From a virus: DNA of 11,727 nt. Below are positions 1 to 8,030 of the stretch, in pieces. The notes under the pieces are model-generated. The model did not search any database. It saw nothing but the letters and a program-made list of their open reading frames with translations, and was not told the origin of the DNA. A program made the position numbers and the translations under genes. The stretch is taken from UHGV virus genome UHGV-0322023; one strand, 5' to 3'. Within the stretch, counting starts at the first letter, position 1. Each line of letters opens with the position of its first letter.

Positions 1-629
1 CTGCGCTGCAGTATCGCGATGATGTGATCCGTAATGCCCGGCTTGAATGGGGACTGTCTGCGCCGGTGGCCGATTTCGCCGCGCAACTGCATCAGGAAAG
101 CGGCTGGCGACCTGATGCGGTCTCGCCGGCTGGCGCTCAGGGACTGGCGCAGTTCATGCCCGCCACTGCTGACTGGATAAGTCAGCTGATGCCGGGGCTT
201 AACAGCCGTGAGCCGTTTAATCCGGCATGGGCCATCCGGGCGCTGGTCAGCTATGACCGCTGGCTGTGGCAGCGCGTCAGCGCCGCCAGTGACTGCGAGC
301 GTATGGCCATGACACTGTCGGGCTATAACGGTGGTCTGGGCTGGGTACAACGGGACAGGCGGCTTGCATCACAGAAAGGTCTGGACAGCACCCGCTGGTT
401 CGGACATGTCGCCACGGTGAATGCCGGACGCAATGCGGCCAGCTGGCGGGAGAACCGCCATTATCCGCAGCGCATCCTGCGCGAACTGGCACCGCGATAT
501 CTCACATGGGGAGGCAGCAGTTGTGTGGCATCTGGTGAAAAAGCTGCCGTGGCGCGGCATTCTGCTGGTCATTCTTATCAATGCCTTTCTGGTCGGCCTG
601 TATGCCATGGGATACAGAAGTGGTCATGA
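1..629 (+). CDS. Lytic transglycosylase (SLT domain) phage endolysin, 5'-partial (frame continues upstream of the window; first full codon at 3)
   Basis: Open frame from window edge to TAA/TGA at 627-629 with no upstream stop. Translation carries the classic SLT catalytic motif (..AQLHQESGW...AGAQGLAQFMPATA..), with the catalytic Glu in QES. The track start at 24 is a GTG and probably not the real start. Sits in the lysis position of a Mu-like late operon. Confidence 0.8.
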   Translation, partial: ALQYRDDVIRNARLEWGLSAPVADFAAQLHQESGWRPDAVSPAGAQGLAQFMPATADWISQLMPGLNSREPFNPAWAIRALVSYDRWLWQRVSAASDCERMAMTLSGYNGGLGWVQRDRRLASQKGLDSTRWFGHVATVNAGRNAASWRENRHYPQRILRELAPRYLTWGGSSCVASGEKAAVARHSAGHSYQCLSGRPVCHGIQKWS

Positions 630-1173
630 CTCTGCAAAGCGTGACGGTGATACCGCGCTCAGTCAGTTGCAGTCAGCATTTGACGCGTACAAAACGGAGC
701 AGGCAACGCTTGAGAATGCTGCGCTGCGGGCCTGGGCCAGACGGTATCAGGAGCAGGTGGCTGCCGGGCAGCGGGCTGAAGCCGGTTATCTTGAGCAGAT
801 TGCTCAACTGGAGAGCCGGAATAAACAACTACAGGGGCAAATTAACGATGTCACACAGCGCTGGATTGATGAAAAAGGTAAGAGCCATCCCATTGAGTGC
901 GTGTTTACTCGCGGTTTCGTGCGCCAGTACAACGCCGCACTCGGATATGACAACGCATCCGTCGACAGCGGTCATTCAGACTCAGTTGCCGCCGCTGGCA
1001 CCCGCTCTGGCACAGCGACCGGGCAACCTGAAACCGCTGACGCCCGGTTACGCAATTCGGGTGTCTCCCAGCGTGACGTCCTCGCCAACATCATCGACAA
1101 CGCAGGGCAATGTCGTCGCTGGCGAAACCAGATAAACGCGCTGCTGGATGAACGGGAAGGATTACAGAAATGA
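523..1173 (+). CDS. i-spanin (Rz-like inner-membrane spanin subunit); start uncertain (GTG 523 preferred, GTG 535 or ATG 421 possible)
   Basis: N-terminal basic stretch then one hydrophobic TM helix (KKLPWRGILLVILINAFLVGLYAMGY), followed by a long polar, coiled-coil-like periplasmic region (QLQSAFDAYKTEQATLENAALRAW..LESRNKQLQGQINDV). GGGGAGG at 508-514 lies 8 nt upstream of GTG 523. Contains an embedded lipoprotein ORF in another frame, which is typical of Rz/Rz1. Confidence 0.6.
   Translation: MWHLVKKLPWRGILLVILINAFLVGLYAMGYRSGHDSAKRDGDTALSQLQSAFDAYKTEQATLENAALRAWARRYQEQVAAGQRAEAGYLEQIAQLESRNKQLQGQINDVTQRWIDEKGKSHPIECVFTRGFVRQYNAALGYDNASVDSGHSDSVAAAGTRSGTATGQPETADARLRNSGVSQRDVLANIIDNAGQCRRWRNQINALLDEREGLQK
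869..1135 (+). CDS. o-spanin (Rz1-like outer-membrane lipoprotein), fully embedded in the +1 frame of the i-spanin gene
   Basis: MKKVRAIPLSACLLAVSC: basic n-region, hydrophobic core and lipobox-like LAVS|C (Cys codon at 920-922). The predicted mature part is short and Pro/Ser/Thr-rich (TPHSD..PPLAPALAQRPGNLKPLTPGY..). Alternative start ATG 848. Embedded position matches the lambda Rz/Rz1 architecture. Confidence 0.55.
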   Translation: MKKVRAIPLSACLLAVSCASTTPHSDMTTHPSTAVIQTQLPPLAPALAQRPGNLKPLTPGYAIRVSPSVTSSPTSSTTQGNVVAGETR

Positions 1174-1496
1174 CACTGCAGGTTGAATTCTGGACGGTGG
1201 TGGGCTTTCTCATCACCTTCATGAGCTTTGTTGGCGGTATGGCCAAATGGCTGTTCAGTAAAGCGGAGGAACGTCAGGCTGCACGATTCGCCTCCCTTGA
1301 ACAGGCCCTGCAACAGTCCGCCTCCAACTGGGGCGAGCTGGAAAAAGAATTTATGCGATTTAAAGCGGATTTACCGCTGAATTATGTCCGTCGAGAGGAT
1401 TATATCCGTGGCCAGACAGTCATTGAGGCCAAACTGGACGCGCTTTATAACAAACTGGAAGTGGTACAGCAGTACCGCAATACCGGAGGTCAATAA
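1170..1496 (+). CDS. Small membrane protein with one N-terminal TM helix, unknown function; possible lysis accessory (holin/antiholin/releasin-like)
   Basis: ATG 1170 overlaps the i-spanin stop (ATGA); GGGAAGG at 1154-1160. N-terminal hydrophobic segment (FWTVVGFLITFMSFVGGMAKWLF) followed by a charged, helical soluble domain. Lies immediately after the spanins in the same operon. Confidence 0.55.
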   Translation: MTLQVEFWTVVGFLITFMSFVGGMAKWLFSKAEERQAARFASLEQALQQSASNWGELEKEFMRFKADLPLNYVRREDYIRGQTVIEAKLDALYNKLEVVQQYRNTGGQ

Positions 1497-1807
1497 TGGT
1501 CGATATTACCCGGGTACGCCGCGAATCCCTGCGCTGGAGTCTGCTGGTTGCCCTGAACAAGACCCGCCCTTACACCGCCAGCGAGACGCTGCTGCTGGAT
1601 GTGTCCCGTGCCATCTACCCGGACACCACACCGCTGGAACTGCGCCGCGAACTGGATTATCTGGCTGACCGTAAAATGGTTGAGCTGGAGAAAAAACCTT
1701 CTGGCGACTGGTTTGCTGACCTGACCCGCCTCGGCGTAGACCTGGTGGAATACACCGTGGAATGTGGTCCGGGTATTGCCCGCCCGGAAAAGTACTGGAG
1801 TGAATAA
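1496..1807 (+). CDS. Hypothetical phage protein, 103 aa, no TM segment; conserved-position small gene upstream of the small terminase
   Basis: ATG 1496 overlaps the upstream stop (TAATG); GGAGG at 1485-1489 is 6 nt upstream. Compact soluble protein; its stop overlaps the next start (TAATG at 1805-1809). Confidence 0.55.
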   Translation: MVDITRVRRESLRWSLLVALNKTRPYTASETLLLDVSRAIYPDTTPLELRRELDYLADRKMVELEKKPSGDWFADLTRLGVDLVEYTVECGPGIARPEKYWSE

Positions 1808-2352
1808 TGGCCAGACGCAGCACAATAGAAAAGCTGCCGGAAGACGTGCGCCGCTGGCTTGAACGGGCGCTGACTGAATCCGGCTTCAGCGGGTATAACG
1901 AGCTGGAGTCACTGTTGCGTGAGCGGGGGTACGTCATCAGCAAATCCGCTATCCATCGCTATGGACAGAAGATTGAGCGCCGCTATGGTGCTATCCGTGC
2001 GGCAACAGAAGCGGCCCGCATGCTGACCGAAGGCGCAGCAGACGATCAGGATGCGCGTTCGGAGGCTGTGATAGCCCTTATTCAGACCGAGCTGTTCGAG
2101 AGTATTGTCCAGTTGCAGGAGGCGGAAGAAGGCGAAGTCGATCCTAAAGAACGCGTGGCCCTGCTGTCGAAGGTGGCGAAGAATGTGGCTACGCTGTCCC
2201 GCGCGTCCGTCAACCTCAAAAAGTTCCAGTCTGAAGTACGGGCCAGAGCGCAGCAGGCAGCCAGCAACGCCGAGAAAATTGCCCGTAAGGGGGGACTGTC
2301 AAGCGACGCAGTACAGGCGCTTCGTCGCGAGATTCTGGGGATTGCCACATGA
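1807..2352 (+). CDS. Mu gp27-like protein (DUF3486-type), putative terminase small subunit
   Basis: N-terminus MARRSTIEKLPEDVRRWLERAL is typical of Mu gp27/DUF3486 proteins. Immediately upstream of, and coupled to, the large terminase (ATGA overlap at 2349-2352). Confidence 0.7.
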   Translation: MARRSTIEKLPEDVRRWLERALTESGFSGYNELESLLRERGYVISKSAIHRYGQKIERRYGAIRAATEAARMLTEGAADDQDARSEAVIALIQTELFESIVQLQEAEEGEVDPKERVALLSKVAKNVATLSRASVNLKKFQSEVRARAQQAASNAEKIARKGGLSSDAVQALRREILGIAT

Positions 2353-3944
2353 CAAAATCATCCGGAGTGATTTTAAACGCCGCTGGCGGCGGCCCCGAAG
2401 GGATGAGTCCCATGGACGGGAGGAATAACCTTGCTCCCGTTTTGCCTGATACCTCGGCGCTGGATGCCCCTCCCGTTCTGTTGCCTTACCAGCAGCGCTG
2501 GGTGGCAGACACCTCTCCGCTTAAGGTGATAGAAAAGAGCCGTCGTACCGGTATTACATGGGCTGAGGCATCCGATAACGTACTGACCGCCGCCTCTTCT
2601 GCGCCAGCAGGCGGGATGAATGTGTATTACATCGCTTATAACCAGGACATGACCGTCGAATACATTCAGGCGTGTGCGATGTGGGCACGGGCATTCAACT
2701 ATGCGGCCAGTGAAATTGAAGAAGGATTCTGGGAAGAGGACGACGACGACAAACACATCAAGACTTACACCATCAAATTTCCTGACTCCGGCTTTCGTAT
2801 TGTTGCGCTCTCCAGCCGCCCGTCTAACCTGCGTGGCCGTCAGGGTATTATTGTTATCGACGAAGCGGCGTTCCATGAGCAACTGGACGAACTGCTGAAA
2901 GCGGCGCTGGCGATGCTTATCTGGGGGGGAAAGGTACGCGTTATCTCCACCCATGACGGTGACGACAATCCGTTCAATACGCTTATCGGGGATATCCGTG
3001 CCGGACGTCAGGGAGGCAGCATACATCGCATCACTTTCCGGGAAGCCGTATCTGAGGGGCTGTTCCGGCGCGTCTGTCTGCGCACCGGGAAGGAATGGTC
3101 GGAGGCATCCGAGCAGGCCTGGATGGCATCGGTGTACAAATTCTACGGTGCCGGCGCATCCGAAGAGCTTGACTGTATTCCGGCCAACGGTGGCGGTGCC
3201 TGGCTGTCCCGTGCCCTGATAGAGTCCCGCATGTCCGCTGATACGCCGGTATTGCGTCTGACCTGCAAGGAAGGTTATGAACTGCTGTCTGATGAGGTTC
3301 GCTTCCGCGAGACGCAGGACTGGCTTGATGAGTATCTGAAACCATTGCTGGAGGCACTCCCCACTGATGCCCGCTCTTTCCTGGGGCGCGACTTTGGCCG
3401 TAGCGGTGATTTGTCGGTGGACTATCCCCTGCTGCAGGAGAAGAACCTGGTACGACGCGTGCCATTCGTACTGGAGCTGCGTAACGTGCCGTTCAGACAG
3501 CAGGAGCAAATCACCTGGTATCTGATGGATGGCCTGCCCGGTCTGCTGGGTGCAGCGTTTGATGCCCGTGGTAATGGTGCCTATCTGGCTGAATACGCCA
3601 TGCAGCGCTACGGCTCCGGCCGGGTTCAGCAGGTGATGCCAACCGAAGGCTGGTACCGGGAGCATATGCCTCCGGTCAAAGCTGCACTGGAAGACGGCAA
3701 CCTGGTGGACTTACCAAAGGATGAAGACACACTGGATGACCTGCGGGCCGTTCAGGTGGTGAACGGTGTCCCCCGCGTACCGGAGCAACGCTCAAAAGCA
3801 AAGGCTGACGGTGGTAAACGCCACGGGGATTCAGCCATCGCACTGGCGCTGGCGTATTTCGCCAGCCGTGAAATTAACAAAGGGCCGGTGAAGGCAAGCT
3901 CACGCCGTCGTCGTCAGGCGGCCCGTATGCTGGAGGGATTCTGA
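2349..3944 (+). CDS. Terminase large subunit (Mu gp28-like)
   Basis: 531-aa ORF with a deviant Walker A-like segment (KSRRTGITWAEA) and a Walker B-like hydrophobic run ending in DE (GIIVIDEAAF), plus an acidic C-terminal nuclease-like region. Sits between the gp27-like and portal genes. Start overlaps the upstream stop. Confidence 0.9.
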   Translation: MTKSSGVILNAAGGGPEGMSPMDGRNNLAPVLPDTSALDAPPVLLPYQQRWVADTSPLKVIEKSRRTGITWAEASDNVLTAASSAPAGGMNVYYIAYNQDMTVEYIQACAMWARAFNYAASEIEEGFWEEDDDDKHIKTYTIKFPDSGFRIVALSSRPSNLRGRQGIIVIDEAAFHEQLDELLKAALAMLIWGGKVRVISTHDGDDNPFNTLIGDIRAGRQGGSIHRITFREAVSEGLFRRVCLRTGKEWSEASEQAWMASVYKFYGAGASEELDCIPANGGGAWLSRALIESRMSADTPVLRLTCKEGYELLSDEVRFRETQDWLDEYLKPLLEALPTDARSFLGRDFGRSGDLSVDYPLLQEKNLVRRVPFVLELRNVPFRQQEQITWYLMDGLPGLLGAAFDARGNGAYLAEYAMQRYGSGRVQQVMPTEGWYREHMPPVKAALEDGNLVDLPKDEDTLDDLRAVQVVNGVPRVPEQRSKAKADGGKRHGDSAIALALAYFASREINKGPVKASSRRRRQAARMLEGF

Positions 3945-5437
3945 TGGCGAGGGGTATCTGGGTTTCACCCGATGAATTTGTTGCTTTTTCTGAGCCTCAG
4001 AAATCACTGACCGCGCAGATTGCCTCCCGCAGCCGCGCGATCGACTTTTACGGACTGGGCATGTATCTGCCCAATCCTGATCCCATTCTCAAGGCTCAGG
4101 GACGGGATATCCGTATCTACCGCGAACTGCGCACCGACCCGCTGGTCGGGGGCTGTATCCGCAGACGTAAAGCAGCGCTCAAATCGCTGGAGCGTGGACT
4201 GGAGCGCGGTCACGCTTCTGCCCGGGTCTTCCGTTTCATCCGCGACATGCTCGACGATCTGGATCTGTCCCGCATCATCGGTGAGATGAGCGATGCCGTG
4301 CTCTACGGGTATCAGCCCTGTGAAATCATGTGGGGCCGTTCGGTCAGGGCGTGGGCGGTGACGGATATTGTCGGCAAACCGCCTGAGTGGTTTCAGTTTG
4401 ATACGGACAACTGCCTGCGCTTCCGGGCGCGTGATGCGGGTGTGGAGGGTGAGCTGCTGTCACCGTCAAAATTCGTGGTGCCGGCACAGGATGCCTCGTA
4501 TGACAATCCTTACGGTTTCCCGGACCTGTCCATGTGCTTCTGGCCGGTCGCCTTCAAGAAAGGCGGGATGAAATTCTGGCTCCGCTTTGCCGAAAAGTTT
4601 GGCTCCCCGTGGGTGATCGGTAAGCACCCGAGGGGTGCAAATGATGCAGAGATTGAAAAACTGCTGGACTCCATGGAGCAGATGGTGGAGGACGCGGTGG
4701 CCGCCATCCCCGATGACAGCAGTATCGAACTCAAAGCAGCGGATGGCAAGGCGGACAGCAGCGAGGTATTCCGCGAGCTGATCACACTGTCACGCAGTGA
4801 GATCTCCATTGCATTACTCGGTCAGAATCAGACCACGGAAGCGAACAGTAACAAGGCCTCTGCACAGGCCGGGCTGGAGGTAACGGCTGATATCCGCGAT
4901 GCGGATGCGGACATCATTCAGGCGGCAGTGAATCAGGTCATCAGAACGGTGGTCACCCTGAACTTCGGCGATGTGCCGTGTCCGGTCTGGGCCATGTGGG
5001 AACAGGAGGCCATTGATGACACCCGTGCCACCCGCGACGAAAAACTCACCCGGGCGGGTCTGCGTCTGACCCCGCAGTACTTCATGCGGGAGTACCAGCT
5101 GCAGGAGGGGGATATTGACCTCTCTGATGCACCGGTTGCGGACGGGGCAGTGCCTGCGGAGTTTGCCGAGGCGATAAGCGCCGATCATGATGCACAACAG
5201 CAGCTTGACGACGCGCTGGACATTCTGATGAACGGAGGTGTGTTAAATGGCACGCTGGAACCCGTCCTGGCACCTCTGTTTAAGCGGGTCGAAAACGGGG
5301 TTAACCCGACTGAGCTGCTGGGCGAACTGGCGGAGCTCTACCCTCAGATGAACACGGACGATCTGCAGGAACGGCTGGCCCGCATTCTCTTTGTGGCAAA
5401 TATCTGGGGACGTCTGCATGAGCGTGACAACGGCTGA
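3944..5437 (+). CDS. Portal protein (Mu gp29-like, DUF935 family)
   Basis: 497-aa ORF directly after the terminase (TGATG overlap), with GGAGGG at 3932-3937. Size and position are typical of Mu-like portal proteins. Confidence 0.85.
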   Translation: MARGIWVSPDEFVAFSEPQKSLTAQIASRSRAIDFYGLGMYLPNPDPILKAQGRDIRIYRELRTDPLVGGCIRRRKAALKSLERGLERGHASARVFRFIRDMLDDLDLSRIIGEMSDAVLYGYQPCEIMWGRSVRAWAVTDIVGKPPEWFQFDTDNCLRFRARDAGVEGELLSPSKFVVPAQDASYDNPYGFPDLSMCFWPVAFKKGGMKFWLRFAEKFGSPWVIGKHPRGANDAEIEKLLDSMEQMVEDAVAAIPDDSSIELKAADGKADSSEVFRELITLSRSEISIALLGQNQTTEANSNKASAQAGLEVTADIRDADADIIQAAVNQVIRTVVTLNFGDVPCPVWAMWEQEAIDDTRATRDEKLTRAGLRLTPQYFMREYQLQEGDIDLSDAPVADGAVPAEFAEAISADHDAQQQLDDALDILMNGGVLNGTLEPVLAPLFKRVENGVNPTELLGELAELYPQMNTDDLQERLARILFVANIWGRLHERDNG

Positions 5438-6239
5438 ACTGGCGTACTGCATGACGCTTCCCCCGAAGCGGGCAGTCAGTTACCTGAAGTCCAAAGGGTA
5501 TCAGATTACCTGGGACTGGGAAGAAATGTGGCAGGAGGCCCATGCCCGCGCCTTTACCGTTGCTAAAGTGACCCGCCTGGATATCCTGGAAGATATTCGC
5601 GGGGCACTGCAGCAGGCTGTCGATGAAGGAAAAACCGATCGCTGGTTCCGGCAGGAGCTGGAGCCGGCGCTGAAGCGCAAGGGATGGTGGGGACCGCGTG
5701 ACACGACTGACCCGGTAACGGGTGAACCGGTCACCATTCAGCAGGGCAGTCCGTGGCGGCTCGATACCATCTTTCGCACCAATATGTCCGTACTCTACAG
5801 CGCCGGTCGTTGGGCGGAGCAGATGGAAAACGTCGACGACAGGCCGTACTGGATGTATACCGGCATCAACGACAGCCATACCCGCAGGAGCCATCTGGCG
5901 CTGCATGGTCTGGTGCTGCGCTGGGATGACCCGTTCTGGCAGGCATTTTACCCGCCGAACGGCTGGCGCTGCCGCTGTAGTGTGATTGCCCTGAGTGCGG
6001 CGGATGTACGTGCCCGTGGCCTGAAGGTTATCAGCTCCGGCTCTGCCATGGGCCAGGAACTGAAACTGGTCTCAGAGAAAACCGGCGAAATGCGGAACGT
6101 GGCTACCTTTAATACCGGCACCACGAAGGTGGCCACCGACGTCGGCTGGTCTTATGCACCGGGGGCAGCATACCGTCCCGACCTTTCCCGCTATCAGGGT
6201 ACGCTTCAGCCACTGGCACAACAGGAACTGAGAGGATAA
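5418..6239 (+). CDS. Head morphogenesis protein (Mu F / gp30-like, SPP1 gp7 family)
   Basis: Contains the conserved family motif region (..RRSHLALHGLVLRWDDPFWQAFYPPNGWRCRCS..). First ATG is 5418, preceded by GGGGA; the track start at 5391 is a TTG. Overlaps the portal 3' end by 20 nt. Confidence 0.85.
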   Translation: MSVTTAELAYCMTLPPKRAVSYLKSKGYQITWDWEEMWQEAHARAFTVAKVTRLDILEDIRGALQQAVDEGKTDRWFRQELEPALKRKGWWGPRDTTDPVTGEPVTIQQGSPWRLDTIFRTNMSVLYSAGRWAEQMENVDDRPYWMYTGINDSHTRRSHLALHGLVLRWDDPFWQAFYPPNGWRCRCSVIALSAADVRARGLKVISSGSAMGQELKLVSEKTGEMRNVATFNTGTTKVATDVGWSYAPGAAYRPDLSRYQGTLQPLAQQELRG

Positions 6240-6241
6240 CA

Positions 6242-6700
6242 ATGGCTTCCGATAACCTGGTCAGTATCACCATTAACGATAAATCCCTGCGCCGGAGCCT
6301 CCGTGCGCTGGACCTGGCTGCCACAGACCTGGAACCCGCGATGCGCAAAATCGCCGGAACCCTGCTGGCGGAAACACAGTTTAACTTTCTTGATGAGGGG
6401 CGTCCGGGGTGGATCCCCTCGCTGGCAGCGGAAGAACGTGACGGGCAGACACTGCAGGATACCGGGCGTCTGATGGGGTCAGTATCAACCGACCATGACG
6501 ACCGGCAGGCTGTTGTGGGGACCAACGTTGTTTACGGTGCCATTCACCAGTTCGGGGGTAAAACGGGGCGTAATGAGTCTGTTGAACTTCCGGCCCGCCC
6601 GTTCCTGCCGGTGACAGGGGATGGAGAACTACAGCCTGAAGTGGTAATCCCCATCCTCGATACCATTGTCCGCCATCTTGAATCAGCGGCCCGTCGCTGA
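6242..6700 (+). CDS. Virion morphogenesis protein (Mu G-like / Phage_tail_S family)
   Basis: 152-aa ORF starting 3 nt after the F-like stop, with AGAGGA 6 nt upstream. Position after the F-like gene and its size match Mu G. Confidence 0.7.
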   Translation: MASDNLVSITINDKSLRRSLRALDLAATDLEPAMRKIAGTLLAETQFNFLDEGRPGWIPSLAAEERDGQTLQDTGRLMGSVSTDHDDRQAVVGTNVVYGAIHQFGGKTGRNESVELPARPFLPVTGDGELQPEVVIPILDTIVRHLESAARR

Positions 6701-6914
6701 GGTTTCTCCCTTCAGGCGGGTGATTTATCATTGCCAGCGGATGAGGGGCTGTATTACCTTTATAAAGGCTTTACAGCCTCTGTTTTATAACCGCCTCCGG
6801 TTCACCGCATTGCTTTCCCTGTCCTTCTCTCCTGATGTTTTCTAAAGCAGATTAAAATCGCCGGGCCTGCATTTCTCACAAACTGTCTCCGACAACATAA
6901 CGCGGGACAGCAAA
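6701..6914 (+). promoter_or_regulatory. AT-rich noncoding island upstream of the protease/scaffold gene; candidate activator-dependent late promoter with an imperfect inverted repeat
   Basis: The only sizeable noncoding gap in the window. Contains the 8-bp palindrome TTTATAAA (6759-6766), a small hairpin AGGCT-TTAC-AGCCT (6766-6779), TTTTATAA (6783-6790) and a -10-like TAAAAT (6853-6858) about 55 nt upstream of ATG 6915. In Mu, a C-activated late promoter (P_I) sits upstream of gene I. Confidence 0.4.
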
Positions 6915-8030
6915 ATGTCAGCCATTCACATTTTTAAAGCCGGTACTCATACCGATATGCACGGCAAAAAACTGCCGTTCACGCCAGACGATCTTGCCGC
7001 CTGCGTGAAAGCCTATGACCCGTCCGTCCATGAAGCACCACTCGTGATTGGTCATCCCAGAACGGAAGACCCGGCGTGGGGCTGGGTGAAAGCCCTGTCG
7101 CTCAGCGGCGTCGATCTGATGGCAGAGCCTGCCCAGCTGGACCCGCAGTTTGCTGAGATGGTCACCGACGGACGATTCAAAAAAGTGTCCGCCTCTTTCT
7201 ACCTCCCGGATTCACCGTCCAATCCGAAGCCCGGCGTGCTCTACCTGCGCCATGTGGGCTTTCTCGGGGCACAGCCACCTTCCGTCAAGGGGCTGAAACA
7301 GGTGTCCTTCAGTGAGCAGGAAGAAGGTGTGGTGGAGTTCGCCGACTGGCAGGCCATCACGAATGCCTCCCTGTGGGGAAAGCTGCGCGATTTTCTGATC
7401 GCCCGCTTCAGTCTGGACGAAGCAGAAAAAGTCCTGCCGGAATGGCAGCTCAACAATCTGCGCGAAGAGGCGTACCGCGACACACCGTCGCAGGATGCAG
7501 CAGGTGCACAATTCAGTGAGACAGGCCCGGGGCCGTCTTCCGCAAGTAACGAGGAATCATCGATGACAAAAGAAGAGATTGAAGCCCTTCAGGAGGAGAA
7601 CCGCCGCCTGAAGCAGCAGGCTGCTGATCGCGATGCGCGTGATGCACAGGTCAGACAGGAGCAACTGCATAAGGACAATGTGGCCTTTGCAGAAAAACTG
7701 GTCGCAGAGGGCCGTCTGGCTCCCCGCGCCTCCTCCGTGGTGGTTGCCCTGCTGGATGCCGTCGCCGGTGGCGACAAGCCGGTGGAGTTTGCTGAGGGGG
7801 AAAGCCGCACACCGCTGGCGACCGCCTTTCGTTCATTGCTCTCCGACGGGGAGCCGGTGATGAATTTCGCCGAACAGGCCACAAAGGAGCGTGTCGGCGA
7901 CACGGTGAAGGTGGATGTGACGGAGTTTGCGGAAGCCGATCCTGAGCGTCTGGCCCTGCATCAGAAAGCAGTGGCCCTGTCGAAAAAAGAAGGCATCAGC
8001 TATGAGGCTGCTGTCGCACGCTGCCTGTAA
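6915..8030 (+). CDS. Prohead protease/scaffold protein (Mu I-like)
   Basis: 371-aa ORF. N-terminal domain (MSAIHIFKAGTHTDMHGKKLPF...PLVIGHP) is typical of Mu I-like proteases; C-terminal third is acidic, helical and coiled-coil-like (EEIEALQEENRRLKQQAADRDARDAQVRQEQ), as expected for a scaffold. Directly upstream of the major head gene. Confidence 0.85.
   Translation: MSAIHIFKAGTHTDMHGKKLPFTPDDLAACVKAYDPSVHEAPLVIGHPRTEDPAWGWVKALSLSGVDLMAEPAQLDPQFAEMVTDGRFKKVSASFYLPDSPSNPKPGVLYLRHVGFLGAQPPSVKGLKQVSFSEQEEGVVEFADWQAITNASLWGKLRDFLIARFSLDEAEKVLPEWQLNNLREEAYRDTPSQDAAGAQFSETGPGPSSASNEESSMTKEEIEALQEENRRLKQQAADRDARDAQVRQEQLHKDNVAFAEKLVAEGRLAPRASSVVVALLDAVAGGDKPVEFAEGESRTPLATAFRSLLSDGEPVMNFAEQATKERVGDTVKVDVTEFAEADPERLALHQKAVALSKKEGISYEAAVARCL
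7563..8030 (+). CDS. Possible nested, in-frame scaffold protein (Mu Z-like) from an internal start in the protease gene
   Basis: In-frame ATG at 7563 preceded by GAGGA (7551-7555) with about 7-nt spacing. The product (MTKEEIEALQEENRRLKQQ...) would be exactly the coiled-coil scaffold-like C-terminal domain. Confidence 0.4.
   Translation: MTKEEIEALQEENRRLKQQAADRDARDAQVRQEQLHKDNVAFAEKLVAEGRLAPRASSVVVALLDAVAGGDKPVEFAEGESRTPLATAFRSLLSDGEPVMNFAEQATKERVGDTVKVDVTEFAEADPERLALHQKAVALSKKEGISYEAAVARCL

What the first reader, a model, noticed from the sequence alone, without database searches (positions are those of the whole stretch)
1170..1496. Single-TM small protein translationally coupled to the spanin gene: candidate lysis regulator
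The gene starts inside the spanin stop (ATGA) and encodes a 108-aa protein with one N-terminal TM helix and a charged helical domain. No holin is visible in this window and the endolysin N-terminus is off-window. In phage Mu, lysis uses a SAR endolysin plus a small membrane releasin (gp25) rather than a canonical holin; by position and topology this ORF could be the counterpart, but that is a hypothesis from context only.
Basis: inference. Interest (0 to 1): 0.55.

Follow-up and report, generated by a model that had tools for sequence, protein, structure and literature searches.

The report
Releasin-like membrane protein of Mu-like prophage
This small gene sits where phage Mu has its "releasin" (a protein that frees the cell-wall enzyme at lysis); it encodes a conserved inner-membrane protein that is probably a very distant relative, and headless phage-tail bacteriocins (tailocins) keep it next to their lysis genes, which points to a lysis role that no one has tested.

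Summary
ORF 1170-1496 starts in an ATGA overlap with the i-spanin stop and ends in a TAATG overlap with the next gene. It encodes a 108-aa protein with one N-terminal transmembrane (TM) helix, predicted N-out/C-in, followed by an ~80-residue charged helix.

The window is the late region of a BcepMu-like transposable prophage found in 638 of 5426 complete E. coli genomes. The protein belongs to the BcepMu gp25 family (PHROG 462, wrongly labelled "lipoprotein"). That family has no Pfam model but at least 1093 cluster representatives.

It is not a DUF2730 member by Pfam. It does occupy exactly the Mu gp25 (releasin) slot, directly upstream of the gp26 and gp27 homologues, and it has the same size and topology. 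Profile comparison gives weak, collinear similarity to DUF2730: 69-80% overall, 89% to one subfamily, only 3% to Mu's own.

New evidence comes from headless tailocin clusters (carotovoricin type). At least 20 of them keep this gene beside holin and SLT endolysin after losing all head and packaging genes, with dN/dS 0.018. That argues for lysis and against packaging.

Unlike Mu, relatives carry a putative holin upstream. The function is untested. I call it a releasin-like lysis accessory, confidence about 0.5.

The parts
3..629 (+). C-terminal ~200 residues of the SLT lytic-transglycosylase endolysin. The N-terminal ~60-66 residues are off-window. In this window the usual stop codon is GAA at 537-539, so the frame runs on to 629.
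   Evidence: PF01464 SLT 7.2e-15 and PHROG 669 endolysin 1.2e-62. Full-length relatives are 240-246 aa with two N-terminal hydrophobic segments. The stop-codon change was seen in the alignment.
523..1173 (+). i-spanin (Rz-like), GTG start. Its stop codon overlaps the start of ORF108.
   Evidence: PHROG 1403 Rz-like spanin 2.3e-91. RefSeq annotates the same coordinates as 'lysis system spanin subunit' in E. coli AF19.
869..1135 (+). Embedded o-spanin (Rz1-like), 88 aa, in the +1 frame inside the i-spanin gene. Signal MKKVRAIPLSACLLAVSC with a lipobox-like AVSC, and a Pro/Ser/Thr-rich mature part.
   Evidence: Read from the ORF translation and the sequence. BcepMu has the same embedded Rz1 arrangement. 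No profile hit, so the assignment rests on sequence features.
1154..1161 (+). Shine-Dalgarno-like GGGAAGGA, 8 nt before the ATG of ORF108.
   Evidence: Sequence.
1170..1496 (+). ORF108: BcepMu gp25-family membrane protein (PHROG 462), the candidate releasin-like lysis accessory.
   Evidence: PHROG 462 2.9e-35. 873 and 1093 homologues. 50% identity to BcepMu gp25.
1188..1253 (+). Transmembrane helix, residues 7-28, predicted N-out/C-in.
   Evidence: Hydropathy and positive-inside count. Inside AF2 helix 7-104.
1371..1445 (+). Family signature motif LPLNYVRREDYIRGQTVIEAKLDAL, residues 68-92.
   Evidence: P69, Y72, V73, R75, D77, R80, E86 and K88 are >=90% conserved, and D90 is invariant, in 136 diverse members. 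Also.
1496..1807 (+). gp26-like winged-helix protein. Its start overlaps the ORF108 stop by 1 nt.
   Evidence: PHROG 436 6.9e-42, the same PHROG as Mu gp26. 61% identical to JBD67 and 54% to BcepMu gp26.
1807..2352 (+). Small terminase subunit (Mu gp27 family).
   Evidence: PF11985 1.3e-56 and PHROG 426 3.7e-62.
2349..3944 (+). Large terminase subunit, marking the start of the head module.
   Evidence: Sub-threshold Terminase_6N hit, 5.8e-4, 20 bits against a cutoff of 22. The assignment rests mainly on synteny with BcepMu gp28 and Mu gp28.

Best explanation
ORF108 is a late gene of a BcepMu-like transposable prophage. It is co-translated with the spanin and the gp26-like gene. It encodes a bitopic inner-membrane protein with almost nothing in the periplasm, one TM helix, and an ~80-residue charged cytoplasmic helix. 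That helix probably oligomerises as a coiled coil and carries a nearly invariant motif, LPxxYVRREDYIRGQxVIEAKLDAL.

It is the BcepMu gp25 family. I read it as the counterpart, and probably a very diverged relative, of the DUF2730 releasin of phage Mu. On that reading it is an accessory lysis protein that acts from the cytoplasmic face of the membrane. It would help the Sec-exported, membrane-associated SLT endolysin become free and active, or tune the Holin_2-3 putative holin that triggers it, before the spanin breaks the outer membrane.

Shown here: the gene is real and under strong purifying selection; its topology and all-helical nature; its exact synteny with Mu gp25; and its retention beside holin and endolysin in headless tailocins. 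Inferred: homology to DUF2730, and the lysis function and mechanism.
For: 1. Same slot as Mu gp25. It lies immediately 5' of the gp26 homologue (PHROG 436 for both) and the gp27 small terminase. The same order is seen in BcepMu, JBD67, KP12_2 and E. coli AF19.

2. Same architecture as Mu gp25. The proteins are 108 vs 99 aa. Each has an N-terminal TM with no K/R before it and 4 K/R after it. The cytoplasmic parts are strongly charged and near neutral (12 K/R, 12 D/E vs 11 K/R, 12 D/E). Both are predicted all-helical, with a conserved mid-protein proline.

3. Weak but consistent sequence signal.
- hhalign of 159 family members against 118 DUF2730 proteins gives Prob 69-80% and P 4.5e-5 to 1.7e-6, collinear end to end.
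- The real score is 30.9, against 12.2 +/- 2.3 (max 19.3) for 150 region-preserving column shuffles.
- Against the Rhodobacterales-type DUF2730 subfamily, Prob is 89% and P 2.3e-6.
- Cross-family hmmsearch reaches 20 bits (p 2e-8). Reversed sequences reach at most 9.5 bits and i-spanin N-termini at most 8.4 bits.

4. Interchangeability. Pseudomonas phages JBD25 (DUF2730) and JBD67 (this family) have 98-99% identical holin-like and SLT genes and 92% identical TerL, but carry one or the other TM protein in the same slot.

5. Natural deletion experiment. Of 80 loci from 80 species, at least 20 are headless tail clusters in the order Holin_2-3, SLT, (spanin), this gene, (gp26), Gp37, sheath, tube. 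They include Pectobacterium, where the holin/lytic-transglycosylase/tail cluster is the tailocin carotovoricin (PMC13195805), and also Lonsdalea, Brenneria, Samsonia, Lelliottia, Phytobacter and Superficieibacter. All have lost TerS, TerL, portal and capsid genes. Five have also lost gp26 and four the spanin, yet all keep this gene intact. dN/dS is 0.018 at dS 0.58.

6. Every SLT endolysin linked to this family carries an N-terminal hydrophobic export or anchor segment. That is the class of endolysin on which a releasin acts (PMC9239132).
Against: - No PF10805 hit, no BLASTP similarity to Mu gp25 or to the JBD25 DUF2730 protein, and no NCBIfam model.
- hhalign probability against Mu's own subfamily is only 3%, and 45% with a shallower alignment. 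TM-plus-coiled-coil proteins are prone to spurious profile matches.
- The RR/RK junction motif of DUF2730 is absent.
- A putative holin is present upstream, so the releasin is not needed as a holin substitute.
- Many partner endolysins look like ordinary cleavable signal-peptide proteins (...AxA|A(Q/E)PP). The E. coli enzyme has two TM segments. Neither is a classic SAR domain that needs help to leave the membrane.
- In Bacillus phage BalMu-1 the homologue sits with gp26/TerS, 26 kb from holin and endolysin.
- The TM protein type co-varies with the gp26 type.
- No member of this family has been tested experimentally.
Confidence: 0.5

Rival explanations
1. The protein works with the adjacent gp26-like winged-helix protein as a two-gene module. 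The module might be a membrane-tethered regulator of late gene expression or of particle (tail) maturation. On this reading its position next to the lysis genes in proteobacterial phages is incidental.
For: - JBD25 and JBD67 differ by a swapped cassette covering the TM protein (16% identity), gp26 (25%) and TerS (45%), between near-identical flanks.
- The gp26 type tracks the TM-protein type among the eight proteobacterial phages compared. The two Gram-positive phages' gp26 form a third group.
- The two genes overlap and are adjacent in about 75 of 80 loci.
- In BalMu-1 the pair opens the late operon, far from the lysis genes.
- gp26 is also kept in most tailocin clusters.
Against: - Five headless clusters (Lelliottia, Phytobacter, two Superficieibacter, Brenneria izbisi) have lost gp26 but keep this gene directly after holin-SLT.
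- Adjacent genes co-inherit without needing to interact.
- The one experimentally studied positional counterpart, Mu gp25, suffices together with the endolysin alone to cause lysis from plasmids (PMC9239132).
Confidence: 0.2
2. It is itself a holin-type component: a one-TM holin, or an antiholin or timing partner of the Holin_2-3 protein. It would act on membrane permeabilisation and not on endolysin release.
For: - It is a small membrane protein encoded inside a lysis cassette and translationally coupled to it.
- It co-occurs with Holin_2-3 in 64 of 80 loci.
- A comparable extra factor acting at the pinholin level, Lcc6, has been described in phage LambdaSo (bioRxiv 10.1101/2024.01.23.576932).
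Against: - No match to any holin or antiholin family in Pfam or PHROGs.
- 16 of 80 loci have the gene without a detectable Holin_2-3.
- The positional counterpart Mu gp25 showed no holin behaviour in DNP-triggering tests (PMC9239132).
- The bulk of the protein is a conserved cytoplasmic helix, not membrane-embedded.
Confidence: 0.15
3. It is a DNA-packaging or head-assembly accessory of the gp26-gp27-terminase block.
For: It always lies at the 5' edge of the packaging genes in complete Mu-like phages, including Gram-positive ones.
Against: At least 20 headless tail clusters with no terminase, portal or capsid genes keep it under strong purifying selection.
Confidence: 0.05

Closest known systems
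Phage Mu gp25 releasin (DUF2730, PF10805; Chamblee et al. 2022, PMC9239132)
   Same: - Transposable-phage late gene in the same slot, directly before gp26, gp27 and the terminase.
- About 100 aa, with one N-terminal TM, N-out/C-in.
- Charged all-helical cytoplasmic domain with a mid-protein proline.
[quoted passage not shown]
- Weak collinear profile similarity (69-89%).
   Different: - No Pfam or BLAST match, and no RR/RK junction motif.
- It has its own invariant C-terminal motif (YVRREDYIRGQ.VIEAKLDA).
- The element also encodes a putative holin, whereas Mu has none.
- The endolysin is an SLT transglycosylase with a signal-peptide-like or two-TM N-terminus, not a lysozyme with a classic SAR domain.
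- Function untested.
Type II DUF2730 proteins of Pseudomonas B3-like siphophages (JBD25, Fc02, H71; PMC9239132 Table S1)
   Same: - Paired with an SLT-type exported endolysin.
- JBD67, which carries a member of this window's family, has the same holin-like and SLT genes as JBD25 (98-99% identity), and its TM protein sits in the same slot.
   Different: Different sequence family: PHROG 736/PF10805 versus PHROG 462 with no Pfam model. Identity is 16%. The two types come with different gp26 and TerS types.
BcepMu gp25 / phiE255 gp54 / B3-family 'putative inner membrane protein' (PHROG 462)
   Same: True family membership: 50% identity to BcepMu gp25, and the same gene order holin, SLT, Rz/Rz1, gp25, gp26, TerS.
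   Different: Nothing essential differs. The family has no assigned function, and its database label 'lipoprotein' is wrong because the protein has no cysteine.
Carotovoricin (Ctv) tailocin lysis cassette of Pectobacterium (Yamada et al. 2006; PMC13195805)
   Same: The cluster opens with the same Holin_2-3, SLT, spanin and this family's gene (61% identity to ORF108), then gp26-like and tail genes.
   Different: It is headless, with no terminase, portal or capsid genes. The papers I could read list holin and lytic transglycosylase but do not discuss this gene.

Membership tests
DUF2730 / releasin (Pfam PF10805) | Match to the PF10805 profile at or above the gathering score (24.9 bits) | tested here: not met
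   No PF10805 hit at E<=1 for ORF108. Only 5 of 136 diverse family members give sub-threshold hits, best E 0.011. As positive controls, Mu gp25 scores 50.4 bits and the JBD25 protein 36.7 bits.
DUF2730 / releasin (Pfam PF10805) | Detectable homology by profile-profile comparison | tested here: inconclusive
   hhalign Prob 69-80% overall, 89% to the Rhodobacterales-type subfamily, 3% to the Mu-type subfamily, and 45% with a shallower alignment. The signal is well above shuffle, reversed and i-spanin controls but below the usual 95% standard.
DUF2730 / releasin (Pfam PF10805) | Single N-terminal TM with N-out/C-in topology, and the rest of the ~100-aa protein cytoplasmic | tested here: met
   TM 7-25(28), with 0 K/R before it and 4 K/R after it, identical in pattern to Mu gp25. 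AF2 predicts a single helix 7-104.
DUF2730 / releasin (Pfam PF10805) | [quoted passage not shown] | tested here: met
   It is the third gene after the endolysin (i-spanin, embedded o-spanin, ORF108). Transposase and Mu-type head genes are present in related prophages.
DUF2730 / releasin (Pfam PF10805) | Conserved twin-Arg or Arg-Lys at the TM/cytoplasm junction | tested here: not met
   The ORF108 junction is ...GGMAKWLFSKAEERQ, and the family consensus is GKxLLxQxExRL. Mu gp25 has WAMRRSF.
DUF2730 / releasin (Pfam PF10805) | Required for release of a membrane-tethered (SAR) endolysin | not testable with these tools
   Needs genetics and fractionation. No published test exists for this family.
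BcepMu gp25 family (PHROG 462) | Full-length profile match and the family motif | tested here: met
   PHROG 462 2.9e-35 over residues 1-106. The motif LPLNYVRREDYIRGQTVIEAKLDAL is present.
Lipoprotein (the label attached to PHROG 462) | Lipobox with an invariant cysteine after the signal sequence | tested here: not met
   ORF108 contains no cysteine at all.
Holin / antiholin | Match to a known holin family, or membrane-lesion activity | tested here: inconclusive
   No holin family hit in Pfam or PHROGs. Activity is not testable here. The separate upstream gene in relatives matches Holin_2-3, PF13272.
SAR-endolysin partner system | Cognate endolysin has an N-terminal signal-anchor-release domain | tested here: inconclusive
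   The N-terminus is off-window. Relatives show two hydrophobic segments (E. coli, KP12_2) or a signal-peptide-like segment ending AxA|A(Q/E)PP. The enzyme is clearly exported, but SAR behaviour versus cleavage cannot be decided from sequence.

The most novel reading that the evidence does not exclude
The TM coiled-coil protein and the adjacent gp26-like winged-helix protein form a conserved two-part, membrane-tethered device present in essentially all Mu-like elements, whether Gram-negative or Gram-positive, phage or tailocin. The device would couple a cytoplasmic late-stage signal (particle or DNA status) to the moment of lysis. On this reading DUF2730 releasins and the BcepMu gp25 family are two diverged versions of one ancient lysis-timing module that can work with or without a holin.
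Probability: 0.12. Interest if true: 0.7.

Novelty: new variant of a known kind. Interest (0 to 1): 0.45.

Why it matters
Releasins were described only in 2022, from one protein (Mu gp25), and were defined bioinformatically by DUF2730. If the BcepMu gp25 family is a second, Pfam-invisible branch, three things follow.

- The releasin-type step is far more widespread than the DUF2730 census suggests. It would cover BcepMu-like and B3-like phages, a prophage present in about 12% of complete E. coli genomes, and carotovoricin-type tailocins.
- It would coexist with a holin and with signal-peptide-type SLT endolysins, which bears on how releasins work.
- Tailocin clusters offer a simple genetic system, lysis without heads, in which to test this.

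It would also correct a propagated "lipoprotein" annotation.

Tried and rejected
- **Direct similarity to Mu gp25 or the JBD25 DUF2730 protein.** BLASTP found nothing.
- **Pfam and NCBIfam scans.** ORF108 and 136 relatives gave only scattered coiled-coil noise.
- **UniRef names.** Two close homologues (P0063, P0087) are named "DUF2730", but the current PF10805 model could not reproduce this. I treated the names as unreliable.
- **Structure route.** AF2 gives a single long helix for ORF108 (pLDDT 88.8) and two helices at low confidence for a Mu gp25 homologue. A fold search on such models would be uninformative, so I did not run one.
- **Packaging-accessory idea.** It was raised by BalMu-1 and by the JBD25/JBD67 cassette swap. 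I largely rejected it after finding headless clusters that keep the gene.
- **BceTMilo tailocin.** I checked it as a possible BcepMu-derived tailocin. It is P2/KL3-like and irrelevant.
- **The search for related loci with the most diverse alignment.** It failed for lack of a conserved stretch. The closer alignment worked.
- **Clustering DUF2730.** Single-linkage clustering at a loose threshold merged everything, so I redid it at 45% identity.
- **Martha 12B12 phage.** The region I fetched missed the DUF2730 gene, and I did not pursue it.
Full report
**Observation**

The ORF at 1170-1496 is as described. Its ATG (1170-1172) overlaps the TGA (1171-1173) of the upstream gene. A GGGAAGGA Shine-Dalgarno-like element lies 8 nt upstream. 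Its TAA (1494-1496) overlaps the ATG of the next gene.

The product is 108 aa with no cysteine. It has one hydrophobic segment (core 7-25), with no basic residue before it and four within 15 residues after it, so the predicted topology is N-out/C-in. The remaining ~80 residues carry 12 K/R and 12 D/E. AlphaFold2 predicts one continuous helix from 7 to 104, mean pLDDT 88.8. No promoter-like or terminator-like site above chance separates it from its neighbours.

The gene is certainly real.
- It has 873 homologues in the 90%-clustered protein set.
- A profile of 17 members finds 1093 cluster representatives at 50% identity (E<=1e-3), nearly all 100-130 aa.
- Among 12 Pectobacterium species, dN/dS is 0.018 at dS 0.58.

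**Genomic setting**

The window is the late region of a BcepMu-like transposable (Mu-like) prophage. The first 2.4 kb match 638 of 5426 complete E. coli genomes, best identity 98.2%, and three phage records. The gene order in the window is:
- SLT endolysin, C-terminal part (PF01464, PHROG 669);
- i-spanin, 523-1173 (PHROG 1403, 2.3e-91), with an embedded o-spanin-like ORF at 869-1135;
- ORF108;
- a gp26-like protein, 1496-1807 (PHROG 436, the same PHROG as Mu gp26);
- small terminase (PF11985, Mu gp27);
- large terminase, portal and the rest of the head genes.

In near-identical elements (E. coli AF19, "KP12_2") and in BcepMu itself, a Holin_2-3 gene (PF13272, 6.4e-41; PHROG 1528) lies immediately upstream of the endolysin. 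The full-length endolysin carries N-terminal hydrophobic segments. So this element is not holin-less like Mu, and its endolysin is exported rather than cytoplasmic.

**What family the protein belongs to**

ORF108 matches PHROG 462 (2.9e-35, full length). Other members include BcepMu gp25, phiE255 gp54, Pseudomonas phages B3, JBD67, JD18 and PM105, Stenotrophomonas and Ralstonia phages, and more distantly Bacillus phage BalMu-1 gp20 and Faecalibacterium phage Mushu gp22.

The PHROG label "lipoprotein" is wrong, because the protein has no cysteine. There is no Pfam or NCBIfam model. The most conserved part is a C-terminal motif, LPxxYVRREDYIRGQxVIEAKLDAL. D90 is invariant, and P69, Y72, V73, R75, D77, R80, E86 and K88 are >=90% conserved in 136 diverse members.

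**Relation to the Mu releasin**

Chamblee et al. (PMC9239132) reported the following for Mu gp25.
- It is a 99-aa N-out/C-in membrane protein that defines DUF2730.
- It is required for release of the SAR endolysin gp22: a 25::cam lysogen does not lyse for about 3 h.
- gp22 plus gp25 expressed from plasmids suffice for lysis.
- gp25 is not a holin.

Direct tests of membership fail here. ORF108 gives no PF10805 hit at E<=1. Only 5 of 136 relatives give sub-threshold hits, no more than random coiled-coil families do. BLASTP finds nothing. The RR/RK junction motif is absent.

Deeper profiles do give a consistent weak signal.
- hhalign of 159 family members against 118 DUF2730 proteins gives Prob 69-80% and P 4.5e-5 to 1.7e-6, with an end-to-end collinear alignment.
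- The real score of 30.9 compares with 12.2 +/- 2.3 (max 19.3) for 150 column shuffles that preserve the TM and cytoplasmic regions.
- Cross-family hmmsearch reaches 20 bits (p 2e-8). Reversed sequences score at most 9.5 bits, and i-spanin N-termini, which share the TM-plus-coiled-coil architecture, at most 8.4 bits.
- The link runs through the Rhodobacterales-type DUF2730 subfamily (Prob 89%), which shares MT.x.[DE]., the TM segment, and a K/R..D.RF element. It does not run through Mu's own subfamily, where Prob is 3%.

I read this as probable (about 60-70%) but unproven remote homology.

**Synteny evidence**

The slot is identical. In Mu, JBD25, B23, Pelagibaca phage P1 and Komp_PAO1_1, the DUF2730 gene lies directly before the gp26 homologue. 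TerS follows in Mu, JBD25, B23 and the Pelagibaca phage; the Komp_PAO1_1 record ends at gp26. In the window, BcepMu, JBD67, BalMu-1 and Mushu, the PHROG 462 gene takes that place.

JBD25 and JBD67 are a natural swap. Pairwise identities are: holin-like ORF 99%, SLT endolysin 98%, spanin 68%, TM protein 16% (DUF2730 versus PHROG 462), gp26-like 25%, TerS 45%, TerL 92%. So the same endolysin works with either TM protein. The TM protein travels with its gp26 and TerS type, a co-variation also seen among the eight proteobacterial phages compared.

That finding raised the rival idea that the protein belongs functionally to the 26/27 packaging block. BalMu-1 added to it: there the homologue sits with gp26 and TerS, 26 kb away from holin and endolysin.

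**The tailocin test**

A scan of one genome per species found relatives in 254 species, and 80 loci were analysed with local HMMs.

| Loci | Gene order around the family gene (famA) |
|---|---|
| 33 | Holin_2-3, SLT, spanin / famA / gp26, TerS, TerL (the window's order) |
| 7 | Same order, but no spanin HMM hit |
| 16 | famA, gp26, TerS(-TerL), with no Holin_2-3/SLT hit upstream; mostly Betaproteobacteria, whose lysis genes I did not identify |
| at least 20 | Headless: after famA (and usually gp26) come Gp37, tail sheath and tail tube, with no terminase, portal or capsid genes (Pfam confirmation) |

The headless loci are in Pectobacterium, Lonsdalea, Samsonia and Brenneria. In Pectobacterium the holin / lytic transglycosylase / tail cluster is the tailocin carotovoricin, conserved genus-wide (PMC13195805). 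Yamada et al. 2006, cited in PMC6813493, derive it from the ancestor of a Salmonella Typhi prophage. A further headless form occurs in Lelliottia, Phytobacter and Superficieibacter. There the order is simply Holin_2-3, SLT, this gene, Gp37, sheath, tube, with neither spanin nor gp26.

The gene is intact in all of these and is under strong purifying selection (dN/dS 0.018 in Pectobacterium, about 0.05 in the Lelliottia type). A tailocin needs lysis but not DNA packaging or heads. This makes a packaging or head role very unlikely and favours a lysis-associated role. The five clusters without gp26 also weaken, though do not exclude, an obligatory gp26 partnership.

**Mechanism**

What is shown: the protein is a membrane-anchored, all-helical, strongly charged cytoplasmic protein with a sharply conserved surface motif. 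It is co-translated with the spanin. It is genetically tied to an exported SLT endolysin and usually to a putative holin.

What is inferred: by analogy with Mu gp25, it promotes release or activation of the membrane-associated endolysin from the cytoplasmic side, or it modulates the holin.

Three points caution against a simple releasin model. A putative holin is present. Many partner endolysins look like cleavable signal-peptide proteins, with a conserved AxA|A(Q/E)PP junction. The E. coli enzyme has two TM segments. The long single helix argues against any enzymatic (for example protease) mechanism.

**Verdict**

The gene is best filed as a member of the BcepMu gp25 family: a releasin-like, probably DUF2730-related variant whose function has not been tested. 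Interest is moderate. The releasin idea is already known. What is new is the link of this large unannotated family to it, and its conservation in carotovoricin-type tailocins, which makes the idea directly testable.

Noticed in passing
window 537-539 (endolysin frame), extension to 629: The endolysin's usual stop codon (TAA in E. coli AF19) reads GAA here. The SLT ORF therefore runs on 30 extra codons to 629, overlapping the i-spanin gene. The same T-to-G change is synonymous (GTT to GTG, Val) in the spanin frame.
   Followed up: partly
L002:5811-6000 vs L003:6799-7000 (upstream of the window in relatives): The first ~55-60 residues of the SLT endolysin carry two hydrophobic segments and match a separate PHROG (5479). 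They differ completely between prophages whose catalytic domains are nearly identical, which suggests the membrane-anchor module is exchanged independently.
   Followed up: partly
L040-L057, L067, L069, L070, L072 (genome loci): These are headless BcepMu-derived tail clusters of the carotovoricin type. The order is Holin_2-3, SLT, (spanin), gp25-family gene, (gp26-like), Gp37, sheath, tube. The Lelliottia, Phytobacter and Superficieibacter form lacks both spanin and gp26. I am not aware that it has been described as a tailocin.
   Followed up: partly
L007 (JBD25) 3729-5522 vs L008 (JBD67) 2386-4269: There is a mosaic cassette swap between two otherwise 92-99% identical Pseudomonas phages. It covers the spanin 3' part, the TM protein, the gp26-like gene and TerS.
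   Followed up: yes
L007:2898-2975 and L008:1570-1647: The SLT endolysin of JBD25 and JBD67 begins MKRLLTLGLLGLLSAC.... It contains a lipobox-like LSAC, so it could be a lipoprotein rather than the SAR endolysin it was classed as in PMC9239132.
   Followed up: no
L001:4025-4219 (Mu gp24), L009:2735-2959, L011:2771-2998, L075:5729-6004: A small CxxC...CxxC protein is encoded directly upstream of the TM-protein gene in Mu (gp24), phage B23, Komp_PAO1_1 and a Rhodocyclus prophage. The Rhodocyclus copy hits Pfam zf-dskA_traR, and the Komp copy is annotated DksA-like. The window has no such gene.
   Followed up: partly
window 2349-2352 and 2403: The longest TerL ORF starts at an ATGA overlap with the TerS stop (2349). 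RefSeq annotation of the E. coli AF19 relative instead starts TerL 54 nt downstream. The TerL N-terminal domain only reaches a sub-threshold Terminase_6N score (20 bits against a cutoff of 22).
   Followed up: no
window 6700-6915: There is a ~215-nt gap between the virion-morphogenesis gene (ends 6700) and the next long ORF (6915). It is unusual in this otherwise tightly packed operon. The KP12_2 annotation places a 41-aa ORF there.
   Followed up: no
L013:20642-23387 (Bacillus phage BalMu-1): BalMu-1 carries a diversity-generating-retroelement set (Avd, reverse transcriptase and a SUMF1/EgtB-family gene, as annotated in the record) just before its holin and endolysin.
   Followed up: no
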